Below are positions 18,388 through 62,436 of a stretch of DNA of 64,000 nucleotides, in pieces (the stretch's first letter is position 1; every line of letters starts with the position of its first letter). The stretch lies in NCBI GenBank assembly GCA_964394335.1, contig CAYMVZ010000001.1, positions 7,360 through 71,359 of the forward strand. Direction: 5' to 3'. Below the pieces are notes generated by a model. It saw nothing but the letters and a program-made list of their open reading frames with translations. It searched no databases and was not told the origin of the DNA. This DNA comes from an uncultured Nitrospinota bacterium. GTDB lineage: Bacteria > Nitrospinota > Nitrospinia > CAJXCL01. A program made the position numbers and the translations under genes.

Positions 18388-18395
18388 ACATATAT

Positions 18396-20114: not shown

Positions 20115-20117
20115 ACT

Positions 20118-21852: not shown

Positions 21853-21879
21853 CATACGGTTTTTCCAAAATTAAAAAAA

Positions 21880-22563: not shown

Positions 22564-22591
22564 ATTAGTTAATCATTAAATAGAACTCCCT

Positions 22592-23326: not shown

Positions 23327-23329
23327 TAG

Positions 23330-24499
23330 ATGGCATTGACAAATAAACATCAACAATTTAGCGATCAAAACCATCTTTTGTGGAGACGCAAAGTCGCGGC
23401 ATTATGTTCTCTATCGAGTTTTTTAAAACCACAAAAGATCTCCACACCTTTGCAAGGCATCTCGCACATTAGATTATATTTTCACAGGTTATTTTATCTC
23501 GAAGAAGGAATTGCATTGATAATGACTCTCTGGATTATGGTTCTATTAATTGCTATTGCGACGGAGTTTACGCACGCAACCAGAACAGAAATTAATACTA
23601 CAAAAAACTTTAAAGAAGAAATCGCGAGCTATTATCTTGCTCAAGCAGGGATAAACCTTGCAATTACAGAAATTCTCCAGGATGCAGAATTCCATGCTCT
23701 TGATGAAGAGGGGGAGATTGTATTTGGTAGAAAAAGCTTTAAAGAAAACGTTCAGGATACAGAAAACTTTGCCGTTAAAGGATTAGAGGAGAATGCATCC
23801 GATAGAGCGAATGTGGTGAATCTAATTAGTTCGGAGAACAGAAAAGAAATTAACTTAGGGACCGGCGGGTTTTCGTACTCAATTAAAGACGTTAATGGGA
23901 AACCGAATTTAAATATTATCCCAAGACGAACCATCATAAAAATATTAGAGCTCTCAGGAATGGGTGCAGGAAGCTTAAGAGATACTATCGCCGATTCAAT
24001 AATGGACTGGCGGGATAAAGACGACTTGCATCGTTTTAATGGCGCAGAAGATGATTACTATCTTACTTTGTCTCCTCCTTATGAATGTAAAAATGATTTT
24101 TTTGATTCGGTTGAAGAACTGATCTGGGTAAAAGGCATGACTGAGGAAATTTTATATGGAACAGAAAATACGAAAAAAAACAAAAAATCAGGTCAAGAAT
24201 TCCTTGGGATTTATGATATGCTAACAGTTGAGAATATCGAATTTATAAATCCTAATACCGTTGATGAAAATTTGCTGGAGATTTTCTACCCTCCCGACGA
24301 AGCTGAAGTAATTCTTCTTGCAAGAATGCAAAACGGGAAATACGATAATTCTAAATCAAGTCATTTTATTGTTGAATCAACAGGTTTTTTAAATGATAGT
24401 CCAATAAAAAGAACCATAAAAGCTACATTTGAAAAAATTGGTCATGGAAACCAATCATTGATACTTTCAAAATATTGGAATGATAACAAAATAAAGTAA
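23330..24499 (+). CDS. Minor pseudopilin GspK-like.
   Basis: Hydrophobic TLWIMVLLIAIATEF N-terminal helix; size and position after the J-like gene. Confidence 0.55.
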   Translation: MALTNKHQQFSDQNHLLWRRKVAALCSLSSFLKPQKISTPLQGISHIRLYFHRLFYLEEGIALIMTLWIMVLLIAIATEFTHATRTEINTTKNFKEEIASYYLAQAGINLAITEILQDAEFHALDEEGEIVFGRKSFKENVQDTENFAVKGLEENASDRANVVNLISSENRKEINLGTGGFSYSIKDVNGKPNLNIIPRRTIIKILELSGMGAGSLRDTIADSIMDWRDKDDLHRFNGAEDDYYLTLSPPYECKNDFFDSVEELIWVKGMTEEILYGTENTKKNKKSGQEFLGIYDMLTVENIEFINPNTVDENLLEIFYPPDEAEVILLARMQNGKYDNSKSSHFIVESTGFLNDSPIKRTIKATFEKIGHGNQSLILSKYWNDNKIK

Positions 24500-24503
24500 T
24501 GGT

Positions 24504-25994: not shown

Positions 25995-26548
25995 ATACGA
26001 CCAGTAGAGAAAAAATTTTTTTATATGTGGGAGGAGTGCTTTTTGGATTTACAGTATTATACTTAGTGATTGTTAAACCAATCTACAGTAAACATATAGA
26101 GATTCAGAGTAAAATTGAACAAAAAGGAATGCTCCTTAAGCGATATAAAGCTATTCTTAAACGGGATGATCAACTTAAGAAAAGAGTAGTTTACATTAAG
26201 AAAGAATTTGATAGAATGGCGAAGGTTCTATTGGTTAGTGCCAAGCCTTCTTTAGCAGCATCCGAGTTGCAAGCGATACTCGAAGACATTATTAAAAAAG
26301 CACGCTCTACAGTAACAAATATTAAAAATAATAAGCCTATTGAAAAGGAAGCATTTTATCAAATTCCGATTGAAATAACTGTTGATTCAACATTAAGAGA
26401 GCTTAAAGATATTATTTATCAAATTGAAAACTCAGACAAGTTTTTGATTGTTAGAGATGTAAATATTCGGCTGGTAAAATCCGGAGATCCGGAAAAATTA
26501 AAAACTAAATTTATTATAGATGGATTTGCTAAAAAAAATCTCAGCTAA
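25991..26548 (+). CDS. GspM/PilO-like bitopic membrane protein.
   Basis: N-terminal TM; 185 aa; start overlaps the upstream stop. Confidence 0.45.
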   Translation: MNTTSREKIFLYVGGVLFGFTVLYLVIVKPIYSKHIEIQSKIEQKGMLLKRYKAILKRDDQLKKRVVYIKKEFDRMAKVLLVSAKPSLAASELQAILEDIIKKARSTVTNIKNNKPIEKEAFYQIPIEITVDSTLRELKDIIYQIENSDKFLIVRDVNIRLVKSGDPEKLKTKFIIDGFAKKNLS

Positions 26549-26563
26549 AAAAAATCAAATTAT

Positions 26564-26612
26564 TGAAGCTCCCCTTAGCAAGCTACTGGGAATGCGCTCG
26601 CTAAACACTTTC
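26564..26612 (-). repeat. Mini-copy (reverse orientation) of the dispersed repeat core gaaagtgtttagcgagcgcattc...ggggagcttcaa.
   Basis: Reverse complement matches 37597-37620 joined to the GGAGCTTCAA module. Confidence 0.45.
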
Positions 26613-26638
26613 ATTAAAAATGAAGAGGATAAATCAGA

Positions 26639-29581
26639 GTGATTAATACCGATCGCGTGACCGCAGGTCGCAATAAAATTTTGATATGCGTTGTCGCTTG
26701 TTTAGTCTTAGTTTTATCTTCCTCATGTGCAGAGAAAAAATCTGCCATAGACAAGCTAATTGTTCAAAAACCGAGTGATGAAACCAAAAGAAAAGTTGAG
26801 GAAGAAAAAATAAGACAAAGAGAGGAGAAAAGAACGGTTGAAGTAATCGAGAAATCAGAGAAAGATGCTTCTCCAGTAGAAGAAATCAAAGAACAAAAAG
26901 AGCAAAAAATTGGTAAAACTCTGGATTCCATTTCAAAGGCTATTTCAAATATTTCCGGGAAATCTCCAGAAGTTAAGAAAGACAAACAAATTGAAAAGCA
27001 TGTTAAAAAAGAAACCATCACAGGTGATTTTGAACACGTATTAATGGAGTCGAAAGTATTATCTCTCGCGCAAAAAAAACCGAAAAAAATACAACAACCC
27101 CAGGTGCCAAAAAATATTCAAATTGAAAAAGAAGTTTCTTTAAACTTTGAATCAACTGACATTAAAGATATTATTATCACATTTTGTGATTTGTTAAAAA
27201 TCGATTATATTTTGGATCCAGGCATATCCGGTAAAATAACATTACAAACATTTAAAAAAGCCAAAGTTAAAGATTTATTTAATATTTTAGAAAAGATACT
27301 AATATTAAACAATTTAACAGTTATAAAAACAGGAAATTTTTATCGCTTTATGCCGGTTGAGTCAGCTAAAAAGGAATCACTAAATATATTTTTCGGTAAA
27401 GATAGCTCCCTTGTTCCGTCACGGGACAGATTAATTATTCAGATAATACCTTTAAAACATATTTCCACAAGTTCAGTGAAAAGTATTATCACCCCTTTAT
27501 TATCCGAGCATGCCAGCTTTTTAGATGTTGCTGAAACTAATAATCTGATGATTATCGACACGGCCACCAATATTAAACGGCTGTTAGGCATTATTGAGAT
27601 AATAGATGTAGAATCTGCTGAAAGTTTGCAGGTAAAGCTTTTCCCTCTCAAACATTCTGATGTGAACGAATTCGCGGTAGATATAAAAGAAATATTTGAT
27701 TCAATGGGCTATGCCTCAGAGGGGCCGTCCAGAGCAAAACCGAAAGTTGCGCCGAAAGCTAAACCTGCACCCAAGGCTAAACCCAGGGCTCCAACCAGGA
27801 ATACATCCATTGACAGCTCCTCTGTAATAAATTTTGTTCCTATTAAAAAAATAAACTCCTTGTTAGTTGTAAATCCTTTTCCAGAGCTTCTTCCAGACAT
27901 CAAGTTCTGGATATCAAAATTAGATAGACCTTTTAAACTCTTTATAGGAAAAGACAGTACACTTATTCCTGAGACAAATGAGAAAATTTTACAAATAATA
28001 CCATTAAGTTTCGTTACACCGGATTCACTGAAAGAAATTATTACCCCTATGATGACCTCGGAAGGAACCTTATTAACAACTCCTGATCAAGGTGGTCTGA
28101 TTATTATTGACTTTGTAAATAATATTAAGTGGATTTTAGAAATAATTAATGTATTAGATATAAACACGCTGGATAAAATACAGGTAAGGTTAGTCCTTGC
28201 GGAACATGCTGATGCGGAAGAAATAGCAAGTACTTTAACTGAAATGTTTGATTCATTAGGCTACACCGCTCAAGAGACGGGCTCTAGTTTGAAATTTGTT
28301 CCAGTTGAAAGATTAAATGCTTTAATAATAATCAATCCTTTTTCAGAACTTCTACCTAATATCGAATCCTGGATTTCAATATTAGATACTCCTGCCATGG
28401 AAGGCCTGGAAGAAAAAACTTTTATTTATTACGTTCAAAATACAAAAGCTGGTGCCCTGGCATCGCTTTTAACTACATTATATCAACCAGACACCTTGAC
28501 AAGCAGTAGAGAAGTAACGGACAAGAGGTTTAGAGTAAGCAAAAAAGGGTCTCGAAAAGAAAAAACTGCAAGCAAAGAAAAAAAAGTAAAAGGTAAAACT
28601 AAACCTTATCAAAAAAAACCGTCAATTAAAGTCAAAACCCTTCAATCACAAGACGTTGTCGGTGAAATCCTTTTTGTCGCGGACGAGTTTACCAACGCGC
28701 TTATAGTTAAAACGCTTCCCAGGAATTATCCTGCAATATTGGAAACTATTAAGCTACTTGATTTAATGCCTCTGCAGGTGATGATTGAAGTGCTGGTAAT
28801 ACAATTGACTATAGATGACCAAACAAGGGCAGGGATTGACTGGGCATTTAAAACCGGAAGTCTTGCTGTGGGTTCTGCAGCAGCGTCTCAATCTGTTTCC
28901 GTTGGGGCAGTTTTAGGGCAGTCTGCGACAGCTGTCCTGAGCCAGGGGTTTTCTATTGTTGCGCAATCAGAAAATTTTACCGCCTTGCTCCAGGCATTTG
29001 CTGAAGATTCTAAGCTAAATGTATTATCAAATCCAATTCTTATAACTTCCGAGAATAAACCTGCATCTATTAATATTACCAATGACATACCGATTGAGAC
29101 ATCAACCATTTCCACGCCAACAGCAGGACAGCCTTTGACTGAAACATCTATTCAGTATAGAAGTGTTGGCATTAAGCTAAATATCACTCCTCAAATCAAT
29201 AGAGACCGTTTTGTTGCTTTAGAAATCAGTCAGGAATCGAGTAATGTTAATGAAGCCGCATCATTCTCTCAACCCGCTTTTTTTACTCGCAGCACCGATA
29301 CCAATGTCGTTGTAAAAGATAAACAAACTCTGGTTATCGGAGGGTTAATGGAAACAACGAAAAGCCATTCTAATACCGGGGTTCCTATTTTAAAAGATAT
29401 ACCCTTTTTTGGTCGACTTTTTAAAGCAAAGTCAGACAGACTTCGTAAAACAGAATTGATAATTTTTATAACTCCTCATGTGATTGCTGATATTTCCGAA
29501 GCTAATCAAGCTACAAAGAGTTTCAGATCGAAATTATTAAATATAACGAAAGACTTTAAATTAAAAAAAAGAATAAATTAA
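26639..29581 (+). CDS. gspD: Secretin GspD (980 aa) with duplicated N-domains and a K/P/A-rich linker.
   Basis: C-terminal secretin motifs (…VVVKDKQTLVIGGL…VPILKDIPFFGRLF). Lipoprotein-like N-terminus. Internal repeat of the …IIPL…SLKEIITP… domain. Confidence 0.85.
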   Translation: MINTDRVTAGRNKILICVVACLVLVLSSSCAEKKSAIDKLIVQKPSDETKRKVEEEKIRQREEKRTVEVIEKSEKDASPVEEIKEQKEQKIGKTLDSISKAISNISGKSPEVKKDKQIEKHVKKETITGDFEHVLMESKVLSLAQKKPKKIQQPQVPKNIQIEKEVSLNFESTDIKDIIITFCDLLKIDYILDPGISGKITLQTFKKAKVKDLFNILEKILILNNLTVIKTGNFYRFMPVESAKKESLNIFFGKDSSLVPSRDRLIIQIIPLKHISTSSVKSIITPLLSEHASFLDVAETNNLMIIDTATNIKRLLGIIEIIDVESAESLQVKLFPLKHSDVNEFAVDIKEIFDSMGYASEGPSRAKPKVAPKAKPAPKAKPRAPTRNTSIDSSSVINFVPIKKINSLLVVNPFPELLPDIKFWISKLDRPFKLFIGKDSTLIPETNEKILQIIPLSFVTPDSLKEIITPMMTSEGTLLTTPDQGGLIIIDFVNNIKWILEIINVLDINTLDKIQVRLVLAEHADAEEIASTLTEMFDSLGYTAQETGSSLKFVPVERLNALIIINPFSELLPNIESWISILDTPAMEGLEEKTFIYYVQNTKAGALASLLTTLYQPDTLTSSREVTDKRFRVSKKGSRKEKTASKEKKVKGKTKPYQKKPSIKVKTLQSQDVVGEILFVADEFTNALIVKTLPRNYPAILETIKLLDLMPLQVMIEVLVIQLTIDDQTRAGIDWAFKTGSLAVGSAAASQSVSVGAVLGQSATAVLSQGFSIVAQSENFTALLQAFAEDSKLNVLSNPILITSENKPASINITNDIPIETSTISTPTAGQPLTETSIQYRSVGIKLNITPQINRDRFVALEISQESSNVNEAASFSQPAFFTRSTDTNVVVKDKQTLVIGGLMETTKSHSNTGVPILKDIPFFGRLFKAKSDRLRKTELIIFITPHVIADISEANQATKSFRSKLLNITKDFKLKKRIN

Positions 29582-31688: not shown

Positions 31689-33230
31689 TTGTTCAAATGG
31701 GAAAGCGATATGACTGAAAAATTTCAATATGGTCTTGATCAACTAACTATCACAAAAGCGCTTCAACTTGCAAGAGATGAAATGCAGGGAATTCTATCGG
31801 ATAAAGCCGTTTCAAATGTATCTAAAAGTTATGATGCGGTTCAAAAAATCGCTGAAGGAGAAAAACTTGTCTATGGCATCAATACCGGGCTTGGGTCTTT
31901 ATGTACCAGGAAAATTTCTAAAAAAGATATCAGAAAGCTCCAGGAAAACCTGTTAAAAAGTCATAGCGTAGGGGTGGGAGAACCTGTTACAAATGAACTC
32001 GCAAAACTCATGCTGATCCTGAAAGTTCATTCTCTCTGCTATGGTTATTCAGGAATTTCTCTCAAAGTCGTCGAAAGAATCTGCTGGCACATTGAACATA
32101 ATTGCATACCTCTGGTTCCCGCCCAGGGTTCCGTTGGAGCATCAGGTGACCTGGCGCCATTAGCTCACCTTTTTCTCTCTTTGCTCGGCCTGGGTATGCT
32201 CTCGGAAAACGGCAAAAACTATCTTCCTGCTCTGGATGTTTTGAAAACGCATCAACTTTCAGCTTTAACGCTGGGGCCCAAGGAGGGGGTGGCTTTAATT
32301 AATGGAACCCAGTTTATTTCAGCACATGCAATTGCAGTTTCCGAAAAGTTTGCTCGTTGCCTGGAGTATGCAGACCTTATTGGAGCACTCAGCCTGGAAG
32401 CGATGCTGGAATCTCATAAACCCTTTGTTGAAAAACTCCATCAGCTCCGGCCTCACCCCGGAGCACTAACCGTTGCAAAACGAATGAGAACAATTCTAAA
32501 AGGATCTCAAGTTGTTAAATCACATGAGCATTGCGGACGAGTTCAAGATCCCTACTCGGTCCGGTGCATCCCCCAGGTGCATGGCGCCTCCAGAGACGCT
32601 CTTGATCATCTTAATGAAAAACTGGTGTGTGAACTGAACTCGGTTACTGATAATCCTATCATCTTCAGTGCTGAAGACACAATAAGCGGTGGGAATTTTC
32701 ATGGCCAGCCTCTTGCCATGCCGTTGGATTACGTCAGCCTGGCGGCTTCAGAACTGGGCAGTATTTCCGAACGGCGCACTTACCTTCTTCTTGGAGGAGA
32801 TGCGGGTCTTCCAACGTATCTGATGAAAGAATCCGGGCTAAATTCAGGTTTTATGATTACCCAATACTGCGCTGCCGCCCTGGTCAGTGAAAATAAATCG
32901 AACTGTTTTCCTGCCAGTGCGGACAGTATTCCAACATCTATGGGGCAGGAGGATCATGTAAGTATGGGATCGATCAGCGGACGAAAAGCCCTGACCATTG
33001 TGAAGAACCTGGAGAAAATTCTTGCGATTGAACTATTGTGCTCGGCTCAAGCTTTTGATTTTAGAAGACCGGTTCAATCCAGTGAAATCCTTGAAAGGTT
33101 TCACTCTTCAATCCGAAAAAAAATACCTCATTTAAAAGAAGATACGGTAATGTCAGACTATATTGAAACGGCAACGAAATTTGTTTCAAATGATGATTTG
33201 TTTAAAGCAAGCATTAAGGAACTGTTATGA
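31689..33230 (+). CDS. hutH: Histidine ammonia-lyase.
   Basis: [12 protein letters not shown] (the Ala-Ser-Gly triad that autocatalytically forms the MIO cofactor); size. Confidence 0.9.
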
Positions 33231-34918
33231 GTTGTAAAATTGATTCAAAAACCTTTGAAACTTTTCTTTCTCAATACGCTTCACATCCTGTCTATAAAGC
33301 ACCGCGGGGAAACCAGCTTCATGCCAAATCATGGCAAACTGAAGCACCTCTAAGGATGCTTCTCAATAATCTTGATGAAGAGGTCGCGGAATCTCCAAAA
33401 GATCTGGTGATTTACGGAGGTACGGGTCAGGCGGCCAGAAACCCTGAAGCGTTGAAAAAAATAATCCAGTGCCTTTTATTGTTAGAGGAGAATCAAAGTC
33501 TTCTGATTCAGTCCGGTAAAGCGGTCGGCATCCTCAATACTGGTCCGGACTCACCCAGAGTATTTATCGCGAACAGCAACCTCGTTCCCCATTGGGCAAC
33601 TTGGGAACATTTCAATGAATTAAAAAAACGCGGGCTGATAATGTATGGTCAAATGACCGCGGGAAGCTGGATCTATATTGGGTCCCAGGGTATTGTTCAG
33701 GGAACTTTTGAAACCTTTTCCGCCTGTGCCAAAAAATATTTCGGAGGAACGCTTAAAAACCGGTTCCTGCTAAGTGGAGGTCTGGGAGGAATGGGTGGTG
33801 CGCAACCGCTCGCGGCAACCATGAGCGAAGCCGCGTTTTTGGGAGTGGATGTGGATGCAAGCAGAATTCAAAAAAGGCTCGATGCCCGATACCTTGACAA
33901 AATGACCCACTCTTATGAAGAAGCAAAATCCCTGATTTTAGAGGCAAAGGAAAAAGGAGCGTCTCTTTCCGTGGGATTAGTCGCCAATATTGCGGATATT
34001 GTACATCAGCTACTGAATGACAATATCCTTCCGGACGTGGTTACAGACCAAACCTCTGCTCACGATCCTCTCAACGGATATGTCCCCACAGGTCTGAGTT
34101 TGAAAGAGGCAATTGAACTTAGAAAAACCGATCCCGAACAATATCAGCAAAGATCTCTTAATACAATGGCAACACATGTCAGGGGAATACTTGAAATGCA
34201 GAAACAGGGAGCTGTCGCGTTTGATTATGGGAATAACCTGAGAGAATTTGCCAAACAGGGTGGGGAAAATGACGCGTTCAATATACCGGGGTTTGTTCAG
34301 GAGTATATACGTCCTCTATTTTGTGAAGGAAAAGGGCCCTTTCGCTGGGTTGCTCTATCGGGAGATCCAAAAGATATAGAAATGACCGACCGGGCTATAC
34401 TGGAAACATTCCCTGAAAACCGGCATCTGCATTTATGGATTAAAAAGGCTCAAGAGAAAATTGCATTCCAGGGACTACCCGCTCGAATCTGCTGGCTTGG
34501 ACTGGGAGAACGAGAAAAAGCAGGACTTGAATTCAACCGGCTTGTGAGAGAAAAAAAGATTTCTGCTCCTATCGTCATTGGCCGGGACCACCTGGATTGT
34601 GGTTCTGTTGCCTCACCGAACAGAGAAACTGAAGGGATGAAAGACGGTTCAGATGCAATTTCCGACTGGGCTATTCTGAATCTATTAACCAATGCTGCAT
34701 CAGGAGCTACATGGGTTTCCTTTCACCATGGAGGAGGAGTAGGAATCGGATATTCACAGCACGCTGGACTGGTTATTCTTGCGGATGGTTCCGAACGAGC
34801 GGAAAGTTGTCTTAAACGGACTCTATATAATGATCCTGCTACCGGAGTAATCAGACACGCGGATGCGGGTTATGAAAAAGCCATAAAAGTTGCAGAAGCG
34901 TTTGGATTAGCAATATAG
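33227..34918 (+). CDS. hutU: Urocanate hydratase.
   Basis: 563 aa; conserved urocanase blocks ([23 protein letters not shown]). Confidence 0.9.
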
Positions 34919-36160
34919 ATGAACAACTCGATTATAATAGGTCCTTTTAAACAAATCCTGACGATGGACAGGCTACCTGATTCCGGTCCCATTCGTGATG
35001 ACTCCCTTGAGATTATTTCCAACGGCAGTGTTTTGATTGAGAATCAAAACATTGTAAAAATTCTTCCCAAAAATAATTCTAAAAAAGCATCCCATTCCCC
35101 GGAGATTAAGGTTGATGAGCTTCAGGAGGATGCGGTTCTTATGCCGGGGCTCATTGACGCTCATACACATATCTGTTACGCGGGTACAAGAGAAGAGGAT
35201 TATGCAAGAAGGCTATCGGGAGAATCCTATCTTGAAATCGCGAAACAGGGAGGAGGAATTTTAAACACCGTTAGAAAAACAAGAGCCGCGTCGCAACAAG
35301 AGTTAGAACAAAGTCTAATGGAAAGAGCCCGAACCCACCTTCTCAGGGGTGTTACCACCTGTGAGGTGAAAAGCGGATATGGATTAACAAAGGACGCGGA
35401 ACTGAAAATGTTGAGAGCAATCCACGCTCTTAATCAAAAGGGAAGCCTGCCTGACTTAGTACCAACATGCCTGGCCGCCCATGTGAAACCTGAAGAGTTT
35501 CAGGATCATAATGAATATCTTAACTATATACTTCACGAATTATTACCCGCAATCAAATCCGAAAACCTGAGCGATAGAGTCGATATTTTTATAGAAGAGG
35601 GCGCTTTCAACCCGGAAATTTCCCTGAAATTTTTAAAACAGGCGAAAGCAAGTGGGTTTTCCGTCACCATTCACGCGGATCAATTTTCCAAAGGCGGTTC
35701 TGAAGTAGCTTCAAAAGTGGGAGCAATCAGTGCTGATCATCTTGAAACATCTGAAGATCGTGAGTTTGAAATGCTCAAATCGGCAAACGTTATTGCAAAT
35801 GTTCTGCCGGGAGCGTCCACAGGTTTGGGAATGCCCTTTGCGCCTGTTCGTAAGATGCTAAATGCGGGACTCACAGTTACAATTTCTTCCGACTGGAACC
35901 CCGGGTCCGCTCCCATGGGAGATCTGCTGACGCTGGCTTCCATGCTGGGTGCTGATAAAAAACTCACAACGGCAGAAACCCTTTCCGCATTGACAAATCG
36001 AGCGGCAAAAGCCCTGGAATTGAATGACCGGGGCCTAATCAAAACAGGATATCTTGCGGATATGATTGCCTATCCATGTAGCGATTATCGTGAGATATTG
36101 TATCATCAGGGTAGTTTGAAACCACATCGAATCTGGAAAAATGGGGAAAAAGTAAAATGA
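34919..36160 (+). CDS. hutI: Imidazolonepropionase.
   Basis: Amidohydrolase HTH motif (PGLIDAHTH); 413 aa; synteny. Confidence 0.85.
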   Translation: MNNSIIIGPFKQILTMDRLPDSGPIRDDSLEIISNGSVLIENQNIVKILPKNNSKKASHSPEIKVDELQEDAVLMPGLIDAHTHICYAGTREEDYARRLSGESYLEIAKQGGGILNTVRKTRAASQQELEQSLMERARTHLLRGVTTCEVKSGYGLTKDAELKMLRAIHALNQKGSLPDLVPTCLAAHVKPEEFQDHNEYLNYILHELLPAIKSENLSDRVDIFIEEGAFNPEISLKFLKQAKASGFSVTIHADQFSKGGSEVASKVGAISADHLETSEDREFEMLKSANVIANVLPGASTGLGMPFAPVRKMLNAGLTVTISSDWNPGSAPMGDLLTLASMLGADKKLTTAETLSALTNRAAKALELNDRGLIKTGYLADMIAYPCSDYREILYHQGSLKPHRIWKNGEKVK

Positions 36161-37200
36161 ACTTCAAACCACATTATAAACCACCAGACAAAAATAGATG
36201 GCAGGGGCGGGTTGACCCGGATGAAAACAGCTTGAGGCTGCATCAAGTTATTCAGTTTCTTGATCTCAAAGAACTTCATGTAACAGAGGTTGCAACCCAA
36301 TATTGTCAATCCACTGAAAAGTATAAAAAGATTGCGCTCATCGGATTTTGCTGTGATGAGGGAATCCGAAGAAACAAGGGAAGGACTGGCGCGAGGGAAG
36401 GCGCGAGTGCCATCAGAAAAGCGCTTGTTGATATACCGATACATTTTAATGAAAAAGAGACTCTGGTTTTGGACGCCGGTGATATCCTTTATAAAGAGAG
36501 CGCAATAACTTCCGGCGAACCCCTCCTCTCCACACAACTTGCCTTATCCACTGCAATTCAAATCTTATTATCCAACGGGTTTTTTCCTATCATTCTCGGA
36601 GGCGGGCATGAGGTTGCGTTTGGTCATTTTCATGGAATCCACTCCTTTCTTCACTCTCGTGAAAACAATAAACCAATAAAGAACATAGGGATTATAAATT
36701 TTGACGCTCATTTCGATCTGAGAGCTTTTCAAAATAACCGGGGAACTTCAGGAACGCCTTTTCTCCAAATCGCGAAATTATGCGGACAAGAGCAGTTTCA
36801 TTATCTTTGTCTTGGAATTCAAAAAACAGCAAACACAAAAAAACTTTTCCATACTGCCGAAGAATTAGGAGTTCAATATATTATTGCGGATGAGATTAAT
36901 GAAAGGGAGCGGCAAACGGAAATTATAACTAAAATCGAAACCTTTATTCAAAAAAATGAATTCATTTACCTGACTATCTGTCTCGATGTTTTTGATTCCG
37001 CCTTTGCCCCGGGAGTCAGTGCACCGGCTTCAAACGGTCTGGTTCCTCAATATTTTTTCCCTATCATGAAGAAAATATTAAGTTCAAATAAGGTCATAGG
37101 TATGGATGTAGCTGAGTTATCTCCCGCACATGACATTGATCAACACACAGCCAAACTGGCTTCTTTGATATTTTTTAATTTAATATCAGAATCTCTATAA
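36157..37200 (+). CDS. hutG: Formiminoglutamase (arginase family).
   Basis: GGGHEVAFG, DAHFDL and SLDVFD manganese-ligand motifs; end of the hut operon. Confidence 0.8.
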   Translation: MNFKPHYKPPDKNRWQGRVDPDENSLRLHQVIQFLDLKELHVTEVATQYCQSTEKYKKIALIGFCCDEGIRRNKGRTGAREGASAIRKALVDIPIHFNEKETLVLDAGDILYKESAITSGEPLLSTQLALSTAIQILLSNGFFPIILGGGHEVAFGHFHGIHSFLHSRENNKPIKNIGIINFDAHFDLRAFQNNRGTSGTPFLQIAKLCGQEQFHYLCLGIQKTANTKKLFHTAEELGVQYIIADEINERERQTEIITKIETFIQKNEFIYLTICLDVFDSAFAPGVSAPASNGLVPQYFFPIMKKILSSNKVIGMDVAELSPAHDIDQHTAKLASLIFFNLISESL

Positions 37201-49446: not shown

Positions 49447-50103
49447 TTATTCATTCCATTTGGTTCCGTCCCATGTCCACATTCTAATAATACCGGTTGA
49501 AGCCACTATAACAGCACAGCTTCTGCCGATAGAATCATTAATATTGTAGACATAAACACTTCCTCCAAAACCGGATGGTATGCCTTTTGGCAAAAATTTA
49601 ATTCTTTTTGATCCGCCAGCAAAACCAACTCCATCAGCTAAAACCCCGGATGAAAATGAGCCATTCGTTGGGGTTGAAGACGGAGGATTTGTGGCGGGAA
49701 GTCCAAATGCAACCCCAAAAGGAAGAGCAACTGCAGTAAATGATTCACCGCCTGAATTTAGCCAGCTATCCTGCATTGTAAAATGAGATGCGGTAAATTC
49801 GTTTTCACCATTGGCATTGTTTTTTTCTCCAAAATCCTTATCGTCATCCGTATCCAAATAAACAGTATAATGCTTATCGGAAACATCTCCACCATCCATA
49901 TCAAAATCAATATAAGCGCTTTTTCCAGTGCTAATAGCTCTCATTTTTGCCAATTGCATGGCGGAGAAAATATTCTTGCAGGCAATTTTTTCTTTTGGAG
50001 TTCTTAATATTGAATAACTCAATATTAATAAAATCATCATAATTCCTAAAACAGCAAAAAGTTCGATCAGGCTAAAGCCTTTATTGTTTTTATATCGACC
50101 CAT
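49447..50103 (-). CDS. Solitary prepilin-type pseudopilin / minor pilin (GspH/FimT-like).
   Basis: KGFSLIELFAVLGIMMILLIL N-terminal methylation motif. Confidence 0.65.
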   Translation of the reverse strand: MGRYKNNKGFSLIELFAVLGIMMILLILSYSILRTPKEKIACKNIFSAMQLAKMRAISTGKSAYIDFDMDGGDVSDKHYTVYLDTDDDKDFGEKNNANGENEFTASHFTMQDSWLNSGGESFTAVALPFGVAFGLPATNPPSSTPTNGSFSSGVLADGVGFAGGSKRIKFLPKGIPSGFGGSVYVYNINDSIGRSCAVIVASTGIIRMWTWDGTKWNE

Positions 50104-50311: not shown

Positions 50312-51196
50312 ATGTCGACTTTTTTTGGAATAATCAGCGGTGCAGCGCTATTATTTTATGCAATAATCCAACAGGGTGGCTTCGCAGTTTTTATAAACCC
50401 TGCGGCTTTGATGATTGTTATGGGAGGAACCCTGGCGGCTCTTTTTATAAGCTTTCCTTTGCCGAGAGTATTGAAAGTGGTGTCGGCATCGTTGCAAGTT
50501 TTCAGGAAGGATATTGAAAAGCCGCTCTGGGCTATTGCTGTGATTGTCCGGTTGGCTGTCAAGGCGAGACAAAAATCTTTGATGAGCCTGGAAAAAGATA
50601 TGAAAACACTTAAAAACCGTTTTTTAAGGATGGGGTTGGAAATGATTATTGACGGTCATCCAGGGGAAGTCATCAGAGATGTTCTTGAAACAGAATCGGA
50701 CTTTATCCAGATAAGGCACAGGAGCGGGGCTCATATTTTCCACACGTCAGGGAAATTTTCTCCGGCGTTTGGGCTTATAGGCACCCTGATAGGGCTTGTC
50801 GCTATGATGCGAGGTTTGGGAGGAGGGGGTGAGGATGCCACGAAACAACTGGGATCTGGCATGGCAGTGGCCTTGTTGACTACTTTTTATGGTGCGATGA
50901 TGGCTAACCTGTTTTTTTTTCCGGTTGCGGAAAAGCTTCGATCCCGATCTGAGGACGAGTCGTTAACCACCAGGATTATTATAGAAGGGATTCTTATGAT
51001 ACAGGCTGGGATAAATCCCAGGATGATAGAAAGAAAATTAAATTCGTTTCTGCCGCCCCATCTCAGAGCAAAGCATTTTGATCGCGCAGTCAAACAGAGT
51101 AAAACAAGGGGAAAAACAAGACCGTCAAGTGAAGATGCATTTGGCTCCGCGGCAGGGGGAGGCGGAGCTACTGCCGCTACGGAGGATGATTTCTAA
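50312..51196 (+). CDS. motA: MotA/PomA-family proton-channel stator protein (4 TM).
   Basis: TM1-2, long cytoplasmic loop, TM3-4 (SPAFGLIGTLIGLVAMM / AVALLTTFYGAMMANL). Confidence 0.7.
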   Translation: MSTFFGIISGAALLFYAIIQQGGFAVFINPAALMIVMGGTLAALFISFPLPRVLKVVSASLQVFRKDIEKPLWAIAVIVRLAVKARQKSLMSLEKDMKTLKNRFLRMGLEMIIDGHPGEVIRDVLETESDFIQIRHRSGAHIFHTSGKFSPAFGLIGTLIGLVAMMRGLGGGGEDATKQLGSGMAVALLTTFYGAMMANLFFFPVAEKLRSRSEDESLTTRIIIEGILMIQAGINPRMIERKLNSFLPPHLRAKHFDRAVKQSKTRGKTRPSSEDAFGSAAGGGGATAATEDDF

Positions 51197-51212
51197 AACA
51201 TTGAGATAACTT

Positions 51213-51914
51213 ATGCCAGATGAAAAACCCGGACAGATAGCAAAAAGACAAAAGAAGAACTATGGCTTTTTCAGTTCATCGGGCGGAGATGACGACCCCG
51301 GATGGATACTTACTTATGCCGATATGACTACTCTGCTGATGACTTTTTTTATTTTTTTATTATCTATCTCAAGTCCGGATCCAAAAAAATACGAGGAAAT
51401 GATGCGGCGTGTCGGAGATGCCCTTGGGGGTGGGGAAGGGGCATTTGAAGCAGTAGAAGAAGAAACTCTCGAAAGCATCATGAAAAAAATAGAAGGTTAT
51501 ATTGAAAATGAGAACCTGACAGACGATATTGTCATCACTAAAGACCCTCGAGGAATTGTGATTTATGCCGGCAGCTTTATTGCTTTTGAATCAGGAGAGA
51601 CCGAACTCTTAGAAGCAACTGAAATATTTCTCAAAAATTTTTCGAAGATCCTTAAAAAATCATCCTATAAGATAATTATAGAAGGTCATACCGATGATGT
51701 GCCGTTTCAATCAGAAAAATTTCCTTCCAATTGGGAACTTTCCGCAAACAGGGCAGGCGCTGTGGTCAGGTTCCTTATCAACACAGGGAACATTTCTCCC
51801 TCACGTCTTATTCCTTCCGGATATGCAGGATTTAAACCCCGTTTCCCGTCTACACCGGAAAATCGAGTAAAAAATCAAAGGATCGAAATTGTTGTTTTGA
51901 GAGAAAAATTTTAA
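51213..51914 (+). CDS. motB: MotB-family stator protein with a C-terminal OmpA-like peptidoglycan-binding domain.
   Basis: WILTYADMTTLLMTFF with the conserved TM Asp. IEGHTDDVP...NWELSANRA. Confidence 0.7.
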   Translation: MPDEKPGQIAKRQKKNYGFFSSSGGDDDPGWILTYADMTTLLMTFFIFLLSISSPDPKKYEEMMRRVGDALGGGEGAFEAVEEETLESIMKKIEGYIENENLTDDIVITKDPRGIVIYAGSFIAFESGETELLEATEIFLKNFSKILKKSSYKIIIEGHTDDVPFQSEKFPSNWELSANRAGAVVRFLINTGNISPSRLIPSGYAGFKPRFPSTPENRVKNQRIEIVVLREKF

Positions 51915-51989: not shown

Positions 51990-54200
51990 TCACAGAATGT
52001 GCTCTTCCCCGAGCACTGCAAGTTTTTTAGTAGCATCATTTAATCTCGACAAAAGAGAACTAATAATTTTAAACGAAATGTCCGGATAATTGTCCAATGT
52101 CTCTCTTATTTTATCACCAGGAAACACCTTAACAATGCTCTTTCCTTTTGAAATAATAGTAGCGTTTCTTGCGGTCCCCAGCAGAGCGCTCATCTCTCCA
52201 AAATATTCTCCTGGCTGGGAAATTTCCGAGATTTTGACGCCATCCTTTAATATTTCCAGTCTTCCCTGCATTAACTGGTAAAAATTGGTATCCGTATTTC
52301 CTTCGTTAATAATTAAATCATCGTTCTCAAAAATTAATTCATCTGGATTTAAAAGATAGCCAGGAAGAGCTTCCTTAACCAGTACTGTATTTTTTAAAAC
52401 CTCATCCACAGTAGTTGTTCCTTCTTTGACCTTTTGGATAGCCTCCATCCTTAAAGTTATCATCCCTTCCTTGATTGCGGTTTTTCTCAACTGGTCTTCC
52501 GGGACCTGGGCGGTAATAGCTTTTTTTACTTCTTCTGTAACCGTCATAATTTCATAAACCGCGACACGACCCTTGTATCCTTTTCCGTTGCATTTAGGGC
52601 ACCCTTTACCCCGCATAATTTTAATGTCGTCAATTTCTTTTTCATCAAACCCTATTCCTATTAAAAACTGTTTATCTTTTTTGACATTAGGGTCTTCTTC
52701 TTTGCAGTCTACACAAATGCGACGCATTAATCTCTGAGCGACTACCATGGTCAATGCAGAGGACACCATGTACCCCGGGATGCCAATATCTATAATTCTT
52801 CCTACTGTTGAAGGGCAGTCATTAGTATGCAGGGTGCTGAAAACGAGGTGTCCTGTCATAGCTGCTTTGATGGCGATTTCAGCTGTTTCCGCGTCTCTAA
52901 TTTCTCCTACCAGAATAATTTCCGGGTCTTGCCTTAAAAATGACTTCAAGGCAGCGGCAAAGGTCATCCCCACTTCATTTCGAACCAGAACCTGGTTAAT
53001 GCCGGGAAAGTTAAACTCAACAGGGTCTTCAGCAGTTAATATTTTCGTATCCACACTGTTAAGAGAGTTAATTGCGGAATAAAGCGTGGTTGTTTTACCA
53101 CTACCGGTCGGACCTGTAACCAGTACGAGCCCAAACGGCTGCTTAATAGCTTTTTCGAAATTTGCAAATCCCTCAACAGTAAAACCAAGTTTTGTGAGAT
53201 CAACATTTAAATTGCCCTTGTCCAAAATACGAAGAACAATGGATTCTCCAAATAAAGTCGGCAAAACAGAAACACGGAAGTCAACGGATTTGCTCTTTCC
53301 AAGACGCATTTTTATTCTGCCATCCTGTGGAACTCGTCTTTCGGCAATATTTAAATTGGATAGTATCTTAAACCTGGAAACTAAAGCATTCTTAATCTGG
53401 ATAGGAAGGTTAAGGGAGACATAAAGGGCTCCATCCTGTCTGTATCTCACACGAAACGTCTTTTCATATGGTTCGATGTGAATATCGCTGGCTCCGAGTC
53501 TAACAGCCTTTGTTAATATTCCATTTACCAGTTTAATAATCGGCGCTGCCTCTGCGGTCAGCTCATCTTTTATTTCCTCTTCTTCCTCTACAGTTACCTC
53601 ATCAGCAGCCTCAGAAACAAGGGAACCGATATCATCAACTTCCTTAATTTCTATTGCTGGTTCTCCTCCATCTTTTGAAATATCCTTAAAAAAACTTTTG
53701 TACTCCTCTTCACTAATCTTGTAATATTTTTTATATGCATTAATTATATCTTTTTCTTTTGAAACTACTGCTTTAATAGAAAGCTTGGTTAAAAGCTGAG
53801 TCTCTTCAATAGCTTCGTTATCAGTTGGGTCAGCCATAGCCAGAGTTAACACATCGTTGGCTACACGAATTGGAAACACCAGGTATTGTTTAGCCTGTTC
53901 ATAAGTTAAAATTTTCATTGTAGCCGGGTTAATCATTAATTCAGATATATTGACTATAGGATAATTGAGCTGACGGCTGAGAAACGACAAAAGCGTATCT
54001 TCATCGATATATCCAAGTTGAATAAGGACGTTTCCCATCTTGGCATCAATTTTTTTTCGTGCTGCAATAGCTTCATTCAGCTGATCTTTTGTAATCTGTC
54101 CTTCTTTCCTAAGCATCTCTCCAAGTTTTTCGTACTTTACCGCACTTTTGCTGACACTTTTTTTGAAAGAAGTTTTCCTTTCTGCAGTTGCTTGAGCCAT
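51990..54200 (-). CDS. PilB/GspE-family secretion ATPase fused to a C-terminal cNMP-binding domain.
   Basis: T2SSE_N-like N-terminus. GPTGSGKTT. CVDC...CPKC zinc motif. C-terminal GEYFGEMSALLGTARNATIIS cNMP signature. Confidence 0.8.
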   Translation of the reverse strand: MAQATAERKTSFKKSVSKSAVKYEKLGEMLRKEGQITKDQLNEAIAARKKIDAKMGNVLIQLGYIDEDTLLSFLSRQLNYPIVNISELMINPATMKILTYEQAKQYLVFPIRVANDVLTLAMADPTDNEAIEETQLLTKLSIKAVVSKEKDIINAYKKYYKISEEEYKSFFKDISKDGGEPAIEIKEVDDIGSLVSEAADEVTVEEEEEIKDELTAEAAPIIKLVNGILTKAVRLGASDIHIEPYEKTFRVRYRQDGALYVSLNLPIQIKNALVSRFKILSNLNIAERRVPQDGRIKMRLGKSKSVDFRVSVLPTLFGESIVLRILDKGNLNVDLTKLGFTVEGFANFEKAIKQPFGLVLVTGPTGSGKTTTLYSAINSLNSVDTKILTAEDPVEFNFPGINQVLVRNEVGMTFAAALKSFLRQDPEIILVGEIRDAETAEIAIKAAMTGHLVFSTLHTNDCPSTVGRIIDIGIPGYMVSSALTMVVAQRLMRRICVDCKEEDPNVKKDKQFLIGIGFDEKEIDDIKIMRGKGCPKCNGKGYKGRVAVYEIMTVTEEVKKAITAQVPEDQLRKTAIKEGMITLRMEAIQKVKEGTTTVDEVLKNTVLVKEALPGYLLNPDELIFENDDLIINEGNTDTNFYQLMQGRLEILKDGVKISEISQPGEYFGEMSALLGTARNATIISKGKSIVKVFPGDKIRETLDNYPDISFKIISSLLSRLNDATKKLAVLGEEHIL

Positions 54201-62001: not shown

Positions 62002-62436
62002 CTAAGATTCATGGTAGGTCACATGCATATGTTCAAAAACGCGCTGGATTTCTTTCTTAGACATAACAACAGGAGGGCGGATCTGTTTTTTTGCTCTGAC
62101 AGGATCAATATCATCAGAAAGCGGAAGGTCCAATACTTGTTTGTAAAGAAAAATAATAGCATTTAAAGCTTGTCTTTGGGTTGCAGCCGCAACCTTTCTG
62201 TTACTTGCCAGATGGCTTAAAAACTTTTCAATCTCAGTTTTGCCCATTTCTTTAGGATGTTTTTTATAGTCATAGAATTTCAGGTAATGAACAATCCACT
62301 CACAATAGGTCTGTTCAGTTCTATAAGCATAATGATGATATCTTAATACTTGTCTGACCTGATCCATCAGTTTTAATTTTGGATCGGGTCTAAATTTACT
62401 CTTGCTTTCCATAGAAACATTTAATAAAGTATTCAA
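62002..62436 (-). pseudogene. intI: Truncated integron-type tyrosine recombinase (intI N-terminal SAM-like domain only, 144 aa; catalytic domain missing).
   Basis: …RTEQTYCEWIVHYLKFYDYKKHPKEMGKTEIEKFLSHLASNRKVAAATQRQALNAIIFLYKQVL…IRPPVVMSKKEIQRVFEHM aligns residue-by-residue with the IntI1 N-terminus. Only ~170 bp remain before carB. Confidence 0.6.

What the first reader, a model, noticed from the sequence alone, without database searches (positions are those of the whole stretch)
51990..54200. PilB/GspE-type ATPase with a C-terminal cyclic-nucleotide-binding domain
The 736 aa protein has a T2SSE_N-like N-terminal domain, the full secretion-ATPase core (Walker A, Asp/His boxes, tetracysteine) and then, after the zinc motif, a canonical CAP-family cNMP domain (FGEMSALLGTARNATIIS). 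It is a second E-type ATPase in addition to the T2SS gspE at 18396. Direct cAMP/cGMP input into a pilus or secretion motor is an unusual fusion, as far as I know.
Basis: partly seen in the sequence, partly recalled or inferred. Interest (0 to 1): 0.6.

Follow-up and report, generated by a model that had tools for sequence, protein, structure and literature searches.

The report
Pilus motor fused to cNMP sensor
This gene encodes the ATPase that extends type IV pili, permanently fused to a cAMP/cGMP-sensor domain; the fusion is conserved across two bacterial phyla, apparently undescribed, and suggests these signals act directly on the pilus motor.

Summary
Window 51990-54200 (-) is one uninterrupted 736-aa ORF. 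It carries an MshEN N-domain, a complete secretion-ATPase core and a C-terminal cyclic-nucleotide-binding (CNB) domain (Pfam 47.8 bits against a cut-off of 27.5). The CNB model (pLDDT 90.5) matches only CNB structures.

The protein is specifically a PilB: it passes the type IV-A PilB equivalog and fails GspE. The paralog at 18396 is the GspE.

The fusion is not an artefact. All top 120 homolog clusters (57-100% identity) carry the three domains. So do 38 sampled species genomes, one Nitrospinae and 37 Desulfobacterota, including cultured Desulfobacter latus and Desulfobulbus rhabdoformis. The ligand-contacting residues G668, E669, R678 and A680 are invariant. The junction and the CNB barrel are as conserved as the ATPase core.

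The gene stands alone, with no conserved neighbours. Every named database entry calls it simply "PilB", and no paper found describes the fusion.

The most likely mechanism, which is inferred, is that cAMP or cGMP binding allosterically gates pilus extension, possibly together with c-di-GMP.

Verdict: a new variant of a known kind, of moderate interest, and directly testable.

The parts
51990..54200 (-). Complete CDS of the PilB-CNB fusion protein (736 aa plus the TGA stop)
   Evidence: One ORF. It is 100% identical to database protein P0001, which was seen on 4 contigs from NCBI, JGI, ENA and Tara. It passes the PilB equivalog TIGR02538, 729.3 against 675.65.
54129..54200 (-). N-terminal basic, Ser/Lys-rich tail (residues 1-24, ...KTSFKKSVSK...)
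   Evidence: It is disordered in the AF2 model, pLDDT about 32. A similar KKSSFKK / SSLKATVKDQSGAG motif recurs across the family. Its function is unknown.
53970..54128 (-). MshEN_N module: two 24-residue c-di-GMP-binding motifs (K25-R48 and K54-Q77) separated by a 5-residue spacer
   Evidence: NCBIfam NF053729 scores 55.4 bits against a cut-off of 38. Motif 2 fits the relaxed motif of Wang et al. 2016 (PMC5013675) at 11 of 11 constrained positions and motif 1 at 9 of 11. The model shows a four-helix arrangement, H25-32, 38-51, 55-62 and 67-78.
53709..53969 (-). MshEN C-subdomain (GSPII / N1 domain, residues 78-164)
   Evidence: Pfam PF05157, 66 bits.
53556..53708 (-). Acidic flexible linker (residues 165-215, 37% Asp+Glu)
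   Evidence: pLDDT is below 50 over residues 175-218. It is the least conserved segment, with mean pairwise identity 0.38.
52395..53555 (-). Secretion-ATPase core (N2D plus CTD, residues 216-602) with Walker A (53091-53114), Asp box, Walker B and His box
   Evidence: Pfam T2SSE, 437 bits. All motif residues are invariant in 32 homologs. Coordinates were verified.
52590..52715 (-). Tetracysteine zinc-binding motif (C496, C499, C534, C537)
   Evidence: All four cysteines are invariant in the alignment. Two CxxC pairs are present in all 38 PilB-like fusion ORFs from the genome scan.
52341..52385 (-). Conserved junction motif VLVKEALPGYLLNPD (residues 606-620), occupying the place of the usual N-terminal helix of a CNB domain
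   Evidence: It is the most conserved segment of the whole protein, with mean pairwise identity 0.78. E610, P613, Y615, L616, P619 and D620 are invariant. Part of it, residues 609-613, has low confidence in the full-length model.
51993..52340 (-). Cyclic-nucleotide-binding domain (residues 621-736): beta-barrel, phosphate-binding cassette and two C-terminal helices
   Evidence: Pfam PF00027, 47.8 bits. phmmer against PDB finds the CNB domains of PKG and PKA at E 3.6e-18. The domain-only AF2 model has pLDDT 90.5 and pTM 0.80. All 50 listed Foldseek PDB hits are CNB domains, with TMq up to 0.80.
52158..52202 (-). Phosphate-binding cassette FGEMSALLGTARNAT (residues 667-681)
   Evidence: F667, G668, E669, R678 and A680 are invariant in 32 homologs down to 57% identity. 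An FGEM...R-x-A string is present in all 38 genome-derived fusion ORFs. It aligns with [20 protein letters not shown] of Plasmodium PKG.

Best explanation
The gene encodes the assembly (extension) ATPase PilB of a type IVa pilus system, and it carries its own cyclic-nucleotide receptor. The hexameric motor core (N2D plus CTD with a zinc motif) is flanked by two second-messenger modules. On the N-terminal side is an MshEN domain with the tandem c-di-GMP-binding motif. On the C-terminal side, after a strongly conserved 15-residue junction, is a PKA/PKG/CAP-type CNB domain with an intact phosphate-binding cassette. The proposed mechanism is that 3',5'-cAMP or cGMP binds in the beta-barrel. This repositions the cassette and the C-terminal helices, as in other CNB proteins. 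The change is relayed back through the conserved junction to the ATPase C-terminal domain, as it is in HCN and SthK channels where the CNB domain also sits C-terminal to the effector. The result would be a change in ATP turnover or ring dynamics, and therefore in pilus extension. c-di-GMP at the N-terminus is probably a second, lineage-variable input. What is shown: the domain identities, the single ORF, the fold, the invariance of the ligand-contacting residues, and the taxonomic spread. What is inferred: ligand binding, which nucleotide binds, the direction of the effect (activation or inhibition), and the relay path.
For: The protein is a PilB by the curated equivalog model, and the T2SS paralog lies elsewhere in the window. 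The CNB domain is supported at three levels: profile, sequence to solved structures, where the best hits are cNMP-binding PKG and PKA domains at E 3.6e-18, and fold. The residues that contact the ribose-phosphate in characterised CNB domains (G668, E669, R678, A680; the assignment rests on established knowledge of PKA and CAP) are invariant across 32 homologs and are present in all 38 genome ORFs. Selection on the module is strong: the junction has identity 0.78 and the CNB barrel 0.65, compared with 0.68-0.74 for the ATPase core and 0.45-0.55 for MshEN. The architecture is fixed in all top 120 homolog clusters and spans two phyla, including cultured isolates. There is experimental precedent that a ligand-binding accessory domain of PilB communicates allosterically with the ATPase domain: c-di-GMP and ADP act as mutual allosteric effectors in C. 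thermophilum PilB (PMC6957770). A second canonical cNMP receptor lies in the same window (15028-16368), so the organism very likely uses cNMP signalling.
Against: There are no binding or activity data. No adenylate or guanylate cyclase gene is present in the 64-kb window. No pilC, pilT, pilM-Q or pilA gene lies within 10 kb of the gene, either here or in 40 related loci, so the link to a particular pilus machine rests on the equivalog score alone. The interdomain geometry is unresolved: the full-length model has pTM 0.45 and a low-confidence stretch at 609-613. The residue after the cassette arginine varies across the family (N, T, S, A, G, V), so cAMP and cGMP cannot be distinguished. Some very divergent family members have a degenerate cassette (P0171, P0163) or a degenerate Walker A (P0219), so the coupling is not universal.
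Confidence: 0.6

Rival explanations
1. The CNB-fold domain does not sense cAMP or cGMP. It might bind another ligand, for example c-di-GMP as in Xanthomonas Clp or a pyrimidine cyclic nucleotide, or it might be a ligand-free structural or oligomerisation module. One version would have its long C-terminal helix pairing neighbouring protomers as the C-helix does in the CAP dimer.
For: Many bacterial CRP/FNR-type CNB folds bind ligands other than cNMPs (established knowledge). The highest TM-scores are to CAP, including its long dimerisation helix, with TMq 0.79-0.80. The C-terminal helices are much less conserved (0.46) than the barrel. No cyclase gene was seen in the window.
Against: The cassette G-E...R-x-A is canonical and invariant, which is the hallmark of true cNMP binders. 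The best sequence matches are the cNMP-binding domains of PKG and PKA rather than FNR, CooA or Clp types. A purely structural role would not explain why the ligand-contacting residues are invariant.
Confidence: 0.15
2. The protein works mainly as a signalling hub rather than a regulated motor. As proposed for Myxococcus PilB in exopolysaccharide control, the nucleotide-dependent conformation of PilB would be read out by other partners, and the CNB domain would tune that output (biofilm or EPS) rather than pilus extension itself.
For: PilB acts as a regulator of EPS in M. xanthus (PMC5544727, title and abstract listed) and has been proposed as a dual-function protein (PMC6957770). The gene is always detached from other pil genes.
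Against: All catalytic motifs are invariant, which argues for a working ATPase. The two roles are not mutually exclusive, and no partner gene is conserved nearby.
Confidence: 0.15
3. The ATPase powers a machine other than a type IVa pilus, for example the T2SS-like cluster at 17.7-29.6 kb as an alternative cNMP-controlled engine, or an MSHA-like or other type IV filament.
For: No T4aP platform or retraction genes are visible near the gene. The only platform protein in the window, at 20118, belongs to the T2SS-like cluster and scores just under the GspF cut-off, 413 against 424. A GspH-like pseudopilin gene lies 2 kb away.
Against: The protein passes the PilB equivalog and fails GspE, and the T2SS-like cluster has its own GspE-class ATPase. 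The adjacency to the pseudopilin and to MotAB is not conserved even at 82% identity.
Confidence: 0.08
4. The fusion is a sequencing or assembly artefact joining two separate genes.
For: None. The short 'stand-alone' CNB proteins that resemble this domain (P0274, P0151) looked at first like separate genes.
Against: The same architecture is found in all top 120 independent clusters and in 33 full-length ORFs from different species, including isolate genomes. The 'stand-alone' cases lie in assemblies where every neighbouring gene is fragmented by frameshifts, so the artefact runs the other way.
Confidence: 0.01

Closest known systems
Type IVa pilus assembly ATPase PilB (e.g. Myxococcus xanthus, Chloracidobacterium thermophilum, Geobacter)
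   Same: It has the same MshEN/GSPII N-domain, N2D, CTD with Walker A/B and Asp and His boxes, and tetracysteine zinc motif. It scores above the curated PilB equivalog threshold.
   Different: It carries an extra domain of about 130 residues (junction plus CNB) after the C-terminal helices of the ATPase. The gene is detached from pilT, pilC and the other pil genes in every locus examined.
MshE/PilB-type c-di-GMP receptors (MshEN domain; Wang et al. 2016, PMC5013675)
   Same: It has a tandem pair of 24-residue motifs with a 5-residue spacer at the extreme N-terminus of a secretion ATPase, and it passes NCBIfam NF053729.
   Different: Motif 1 has non-hydrophobic residues at two constrained positions, R31 and Q35, and both motifs start with Lys rather than Arg. 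In several subclades motif 1 is further degraded, so this input is variable. These receptors sense a cyclic dinucleotide at the N-terminus, whereas the new module is a cyclic mononucleotide sensor at the C-terminus.
CNB domains placed C-terminal to their effector: HCN, CNG and SthK channels; also bacterial CNB-enzyme fusions such as the cAMP-regulated EAL phosphodiesterase Bd1971
   Same: It has the same fold and the same cassette. As in HCN and SthK, the CNB domain follows the effector, so any signal must travel back through the N-terminal linker of the CNB domain.
   Different: The effector is a hexameric AAA+-like secretion ATPase, not a channel or a phosphodiesterase. The usual N-terminal helical bundle or C-linker is replaced by a short, family-specific junction motif (KEALPxYLLNPD).
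cAMP control of type IV pili through CRP-family transcription factors (Vfr in Pseudomonas, SyCRP1 in Synechocystis)
   Same: It makes the same physiological link, between a cyclic mononucleotide and type IV pili (established knowledge; a cAMP-bound Vfr structure is among the fold hits).
   Different: In those systems cAMP acts on transcription through a separate DNA-binding protein. Here the receptor domain is covalently part of the motor, which implies post-translational control.

Membership tests
Type IV-A pilus assembly ATPase PilB (TIGR02538) | Full-length score above the curated equivalog cut-off | tested here: met
   729.3 bits against a cut-off of 675.65, over residues 25-606
Type IV-A pilus assembly ATPase PilB (TIGR02538) | Walker A, Asp box, Walker B and His box of secretion ATPases | tested here: met
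   GPTGSGKT, KILTAEDPVEFNF, DPEIILVGEIRD and TGHLVFSTLHTND are all present, and their core residues are invariant in 32 homologs
Type IV-A pilus assembly ATPase PilB (TIGR02538) | Tetracysteine zinc-binding motif in the CTD | tested here: met
   C496, C499, C534 and C537 are invariant
Type IV-A pilus assembly ATPase PilB (TIGR02538) | Genomic association with T4aP genes (pilC, pilT, pilMNOPQ, pilA) | tested here: not met
   No platform, alignment-complex, stator or pilin homolog was found within about 10 kb in 40 fusion loci, and only one weak secretin hit (L035). The window neighbours are kdsA, a GspH-like pseudopilin, motAB and pyrKD, and they are not conserved. Clustering is common but not obligatory for PilB, and whole genomes could not be searched.
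Type IV-A pilus assembly ATPase PilB (TIGR02538) | Hexameric ATPase that drives pilin polymerisation | not testable with these tools
   This needs biochemistry or genetics
Type II secretion ATPase GspE (TIGR02533) | Full-length score above the curated equivalog cut-off | tested here: not met
   562.8 bits against a cut-off of 630.25. The paralog at 18396-20114 passes with 678.4.
Cyclic-nucleotide-binding domain (PF00027; CAP/PKA/PKG/HCN family) | Profile score above the Pfam gathering threshold | tested here: met
   47.8 bits against 27.5, E 1.5e-12, covering residues 624-705 and profile positions 4-89 of 89
Cyclic-nucleotide-binding domain (PF00027; CAP/PKA/PKG/HCN family) | Eight-stranded beta-barrel with a short cassette helix, followed by the B and C helices | tested here: met
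   The domain-only AF2 model has pLDDT 90.5, seven DSSP strands of 3 or more residues, helix 64-69 at the cassette, and helices 90-99 and 101-130. All 50 listed Foldseek PDB hits are CNB domains, with probability 1.00 and TMq 0.58-0.80.
Cyclic-nucleotide-binding domain (PF00027; CAP/PKA/PKG/HCN family) | Intact phosphate-binding cassette (G-E ... R-x-A) | tested here: met
   The cassette reads FGEMSALLGTARNAT. G668, E669, R678 and A680 are invariant in the family.
Cyclic-nucleotide-binding domain (PF00027; CAP/PKA/PKG/HCN family) | N-terminal helical element (A helix / N3A) preceding the barrel | tested here: inconclusive
   Only a 4-residue helix (614-617) precedes strand 1. The position is taken by the conserved junction motif.
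Cyclic-nucleotide-binding domain (PF00027; CAP/PKA/PKG/HCN family) | Binding of cAMP or cGMP | not testable with these tools
   This needs ITC, DRaCALA or a co-crystal
MshEN c-di-GMP receptor domain (Wang et al. 2016; NF053729) | Profile score above the curated cut-off | tested here: met
   55.4 bits against 38, over residues 25-77
MshEN c-di-GMP receptor domain (Wang et al. 2016; NF053729) | Two 24-residue motifs [RKPN]hGxxhhxx[GAS]hhxxxxhxxxhxx[QNKRYWST] joined by a 5-residue spacer | tested here: inconclusive
   The spacer is exactly 5 residues. Motif 2 fits 11 of 11 positions and motif 1 fits 9 of 11, with R31 and Q35 at hydrophobic positions.
MshEN c-di-GMP receptor domain (Wang et al. 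2016; NF053729) | c-di-GMP binding | not testable with these tools
   This needs a binding assay

The most novel reading that the evidence does not exclude
PilB-CNB is a two-messenger coincidence detector built into a molecular motor. c-di-GMP at the N-terminal MshEN module and cAMP or cGMP at the C-terminal CNB module would jointly set the activity of the same hexameric ATPase. The unusually conserved junction motif (KEALPxYLLNPD) would act as a new kind of relay between a CNB domain and a secretion ATPase. This would be a previously unrecognised, post-translational route from cyclic mononucleotides to type IV pilus dynamics, used across Nitrospinota and sulfate-reducing Desulfobacterota.
Probability: 0.3. 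Interest if true: 0.7.

Novelty: new variant of a known kind. Interest (0 to 1): 0.55.

Why it matters
Type IV pili drive attachment, twitching, DNA uptake and, in Desulfobacterota relatives, possibly extracellular electron transfer. The known second-messenger control of the extension motor is either by c-di-GMP (the MshEN domain, or FimX-PilZ) or indirect, through cAMP-dependent transcription factors. A CNB domain built into PilB would mean that cAMP or cGMP can switch pilus extension within seconds, without new gene expression. It would also add a secretion ATPase to the short list of effector types that CNB domains regulate directly (kinases, channels, GEFs, transcription factors and a few enzymes). 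The family is large, the key residues are invariant, and cultured hosts exist (Desulfobacter latus, Desulfobulbus rhabdoformis, Desulfurivibrio), so the hypothesis can be tested now. It also flags a systematic gap in annotation: every named database entry calls these proteins plain "PilB".

Tried and rejected
1. A word-indexed homolog search with the C-terminal 136 aa alone, meant to count fusion clusters, returned only 51 candidates, mostly fragments. It is unusable for counting.

2. The exhaustive search of 50%-identity representatives with the same query collapses the whole family into a handful of representatives, so it gives no family size. It did reveal divergent fusion variants.

3. The apparent stand-alone CNB genes P0274 and P0151 were examined as possible natural split versions. 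They were rejected because both contigs have every neighbouring gene fragmented by frameshifts.

4. A functional link to the adjacent MotA/MotB-like stator and GspH-like pseudopilin was considered. It was rejected as a conserved partnership because the neighbourhood differs even at 82% identity and no homologs occur near 40 other fusion loci.

5. A feed-forward loop from cNMP through the diguanylate cyclase at 15028 to c-di-GMP and then PilB MshEN was considered. It is weakened because the GGDEF signature there reads GRDEL and there is no RxxD I-site.

6. The promoter and terminator scan around the gene found nothing above shuffled expectation, 8 sites against 7.2.

7. The AFDB fold library was unavailable.

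8. Nine literature searches found no description of the fusion. One of them returned only noise.

9. cAMP or cGMP specificity could not be inferred, because the residue after the cassette arginine varies across the family.
Full report
OBSERVATION. Window 51990-54200 on the minus strand is one uninterrupted ORF of 736 codons, from ATG to TGA. Pfam places MshEN (PF05157, the family formerly called T2SSE_N) at residues 78-164, the secretion-ATPase family T2SSE at 216-602 (437 bits), and cNMP_binding at 624-705 (47.8 bits against a gathering score of 27.5, E 1.5e-12).

WHAT THE ATPASE IS. Against NCBI's curated models the protein passes the equivalog for the type IV-A pilus assembly ATPase PilB (729.3 against 675.65) and fails the GspE equivalog (562.8 against 630.25). 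The other E-type ATPase in the window, at 18396-20114, does the reverse: GspE 678.4 against 630.25, PilB 652.2 against 675.65. That paralog sits in a T2SS-like cluster with an F-type platform protein, pseudopilins including J- and K-like ones, a PilM-PilN fusion, an M/PilO-like protein and a 980-aa secretin. So the window holds one GspE and one PilB, and the finding concerns the PilB.

Residues 25-77 pass the NCBIfam model for the MshE-type c-di-GMP-binding motif (NF053729, 55.4 against 38). I compared them with the relaxed 24-residue motif published by Wang et al. 2016 (PMC5013675). The second motif (K54-Q77) fits all 11 constrained positions and the spacer is exactly five residues. The first motif (K25-R48) fits 9 of 11, with R31 and Q35 at hydrophobic positions. 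Binding of c-di-GMP is therefore plausible but not assured. In several subclades motif 1 is further degraded, to 7-8 of 11.

IS THE C-TERMINAL REGION REALLY A CNB DOMAIN? Three independent tests agree that it is.
- By sequence, the 136 C-terminal residues find the cNMP-binding domains of PKG and PKA in the PDB at E 3.6e-18. The cassette aligns residue for residue with that of Plasmodium PKG.
- By structure prediction, the domain modelled alone has pLDDT 90.5 and pTM 0.80. It shows a beta-barrel, a short helix at the cassette and two C-terminal helices. The same region is confident in the full-length model.
- By fold comparison, all 50 listed Foldseek hits in the PDB are CNB domains: HCN2/4, CAP/CRP, Vfr, GlxR, SthK, PKG, CNG channels and the cAMP-regulated EAL enzyme Bd1971. 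Probability is 1.00 and TM-score reaches 0.80.
The refutation criterion "not a cNMP-binding fold" is therefore not met.

IS THE FUSION REAL? All of the 120 best homolog clusters, from 100% down to 57% identity, carry the same three Pfam domains. The named ones are mostly Nitrospinota/Nitrospinae MAGs, and all are annotated only as "type IV-A pilus assembly ATPase PilB". The window protein itself is on record from four contigs in NCBI, JGI, ENA and Tara.

It returned 38 genomes in which the CNB match lies in a PilB-like ORF. In 37 of them the ORF carries a Walker A and two CxxC pairs; the 38th (L019) is cut by the contig end before the Walker A. Thirty-three ORFs are full-length (738-918 aa) and five are cut by contig ends. 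One of the 38 is a Nitrospinae genome. The other 37 are Desulfobacterales or Desulfobulbales (Desulfobacter, Desulfotignum, Desulfobacula, Desulfamplus, Desulfobulbus, Desulfocapsa, Desulfopila, Desulfofustis, Desulfurivibrio). Cultured strains are included: I read the single ORFs directly in Desulfobacter latus AcRS2 (744 aa) and Desulfobulbus rhabdoformis DSM 8777 (749 aa).

Two short proteins looked like stand-alone versions of the domain. Both turned out to be pieces of frameshifted pilB-CNB genes, in assemblies where every neighbouring gene is also fragmented. The artefact hypothesis is refuted.

SELECTION ON THE MODULE. In a 32-sequence alignment, F667, G668, E669, R678 and A680 are invariant. 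From established knowledge of PKA and CAP, these are the positions that hold the ribose-phosphate of the cyclic nucleotide. Mean pairwise identity by segment is as follows:
- junction (606-620): 0.78
- N2D: 0.74
- ATPase CTD: 0.68
- CNB barrel: 0.65
- c-di-GMP motif region: 0.55
- CNB C-terminal helices: 0.46
- MshEN C-subdomain: 0.45
- acidic linker: 0.38
The CNB barrel is thus as constrained as the catalytic core. The short junction VLVKEALPGYLLNPD, which replaces the usual N-terminal helix of a CNB domain, is the most conserved stretch of the whole protein. A passive tether would not be conserved like this, so I take it as the likely relay element. That is an inference.

CONTEXT. The gene is monocistronic here. 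It is convergent with a MotA/MotB-like pair (50312-51914) and divergent from pyrK-pyrD. A GspH-like pseudopilin gene lies at 49447-50103. None of this is conserved. A homolog at 82% identity sits between prfA and ilvD, and others sit among dxs, nifU/nifS/thyX or folate genes. A BLAST of nine window proteins against all ORFs of 40 fusion loci found no platform, PilM/N, MotA/B or GspH homolog nearby. pilB-CNB is therefore a stand-alone gene, and its machine must be encoded elsewhere in the genome. No nucleotide cyclase is encoded in the window. A second protein with a canonical cassette is encoded there: cNMP_binding-PAS-GGDEF at 15028-16368. This indicates that the organism uses cNMP signalling. 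Its GGDEF signature reads GRDEL and it has no RxxD I-site, so it may not make c-di-GMP. That weakens an otherwise attractive feed-forward scheme.

MECHANISM. The best-supported reading is a type IVa pilus extension motor with a built-in cyclic-nucleotide receptor. cAMP or cGMP would bind the barrel. The cassette and C-terminal helices would rearrange as in other CNB proteins. The change would pass back through the junction to the ATPase C-terminal domain, the topology used by HCN and SthK channels, where the CNB domain also follows the effector. ATP turnover or ring dynamics would change, and with them pilus extension. There is experimental precedent for allosteric communication between an accessory ligand-binding domain and the ATPase domain of PilB, for c-di-GMP and ADP in C. 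thermophilum PilB (PMC6957770).

The architecture, the fold, the conservation and the distribution are shown. Ligand binding, ligand identity, the sign of the effect and the relay path are inferred. The residue after the cassette arginine varies (N, T, S, A, G, V), so specificity cannot be called. The full-length model does not fix the interdomain geometry, with pTM 0.45.

The rivals are a non-cNMP or structural role for the CNB fold, a signalling-hub role for PilB, service to a machine other than T4aP, and an assembly artefact. Each is weighed in its own section of this report.

DIVERGENT RELATIVES. The exhaustive representative search found more distant T2SSE-CNB fusions, with 37-38% identity in the CNB domain. 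Some have a degenerate cassette (P0171: FFCE...H; P0163: FGL...R). One has a degenerate Walker A but a canonical cassette (P0219: GPRDSGKT). The nearest CNB domains outside the ATPase family are tandem-CNB proteins of about 250-290 aa in Syntrophia, Desulfomonilia and Desulfosoma. They are candidates for the donor of the domain.

COMPARISON WITH WHAT IS KNOWN, AND NOVELTY. PilB, the MshEN c-di-GMP receptor and the CNB domain are each well known. cAMP control of type IV pili is known at the transcriptional level, through Vfr and SyCRP1 (established knowledge). Nine full-text searches found no paper that describes a CNB domain fused to PilB or to any secretion ATPase. The library lacks most subscription journals, so this is absence of evidence within that library only. 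Every database name seen ignores the extra domain. I rate the finding a new variant of a known kind: a conserved, unannotated regulatory architecture of a known motor.

INTEREST. I score interest as moderate, 0.55. A specialist would find the direct cNMP-to-motor link noteworthy and easy to test, but the parts and the general logic, a sensor domain fused to an enzyme, are familiar.

Noticed in passing
window 15028-16368 (-): This 446-aa protein has cNMP_binding (60.9 bits, canonical cassette GEMALLGNKYRSAS), PAS and GGDEF domains. It is a second cNMP receptor in the window, divergent from the T2SS-like cluster. Its GGDEF signature reads GRDEL and it has no RxxD I-site, so it may be a degenerate, non-catalytic GGDEF.
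   Followed up: partly
window 17668-29581 (+): A T2SS-like cluster: an unassigned 239-aa ORF; a GspE-class ATPase whose MshE-type c-di-GMP motif scores just below cut-off (36.2 against 38); a GspF-like platform protein just below the GspF cut-off (413 against 424); four pseudopilin-like genes, two of them J- and K-like; a PilM-PilN fusion; an M/PilO-like protein; and a 980-aa secretin.
   Followed up: partly
window 50312-51914 (+): A MotA/PomA-like and MotB-like stator pair lies next to pilB-CNB. All flagellar equivalog scores are below their cut-offs, and no flagellar genes are seen in the window. The adjacency is not conserved in relatives. What this stator powers is unknown.
   Followed up: partly
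window 49447-50103 (-): An isolated 218-aa GspH-like pseudopilin or minor pilin with an N-terminal methylation motif sits alone between kdsA and motA.
   Followed up: no
window 31689-37200 (+): A histidine-utilisation operon: an aromatic amino acid lyase (HutH-like), urocanase, an amidohydrolase and an arginase-family protein. Its GC content is 0.43-0.46, against 0.33-0.40 in most of the window, so it may be horizontally acquired.
   Followed up: no
window 1313-8990 (+): Three large neighbouring ORFs of 700, 1072 and 659 aa match the type I phosphodiesterase / nucleotide pyrophosphatase family, and the middle one also matches sulfatase. This looks like a paralogous cluster of secreted phosphoesterase or sulfatase enzymes, close to a T2SS-like system.
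   Followed up: no
L005 144-2519 and L038 5437-7941 (Desulfobacterales genomes): Directly upstream of pilB-CNB lies a second E-type ATPase with a GAF-MshEN-T2SSE architecture. It is another sensor-fused secretion ATPase, 41-44% identical to the query in the core.
   Followed up: partly
L081 12226-13788 and L085 10223-11800: In two separate lineages at 59-60% identity (L085 carries a Nitrospinota-named protein; L081 is unnamed), a TolC-like outer-membrane efflux protein gene (PF02321, about 520 aa) follows pilB-CNB after a gap of 15-30 bp, so the two may be co-transcribed.
   Followed up: no
P0219, P0171, P0163 (distant representatives): These are divergent T2SSE-CNB fusions in which one half looks degenerate. 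P0219 has GPRDSGKT and altered Asp and His boxes but a canonical cassette. P0171 and P0163 have altered cassettes. They may be pseudo-enzyme or pseudo-receptor derivatives.
   Followed up: partly
window 54129-54200 (-) and homologs: A conserved basic, Ser/Lys-rich N-terminal tail lies ahead of the c-di-GMP motif. It reads KKSSFKKxI in Nitrospinota and SSLKATVKDQSGAGK in Desulfobacterota. It is predicted to be disordered and its role is unknown.
   Followed up: no
window 62002-62436 (-): This 144-aa ORF matches only the N-terminal SAM-like domain of phage integrases. It may be a truncated integrase or a remnant of one.
   Followed up: no
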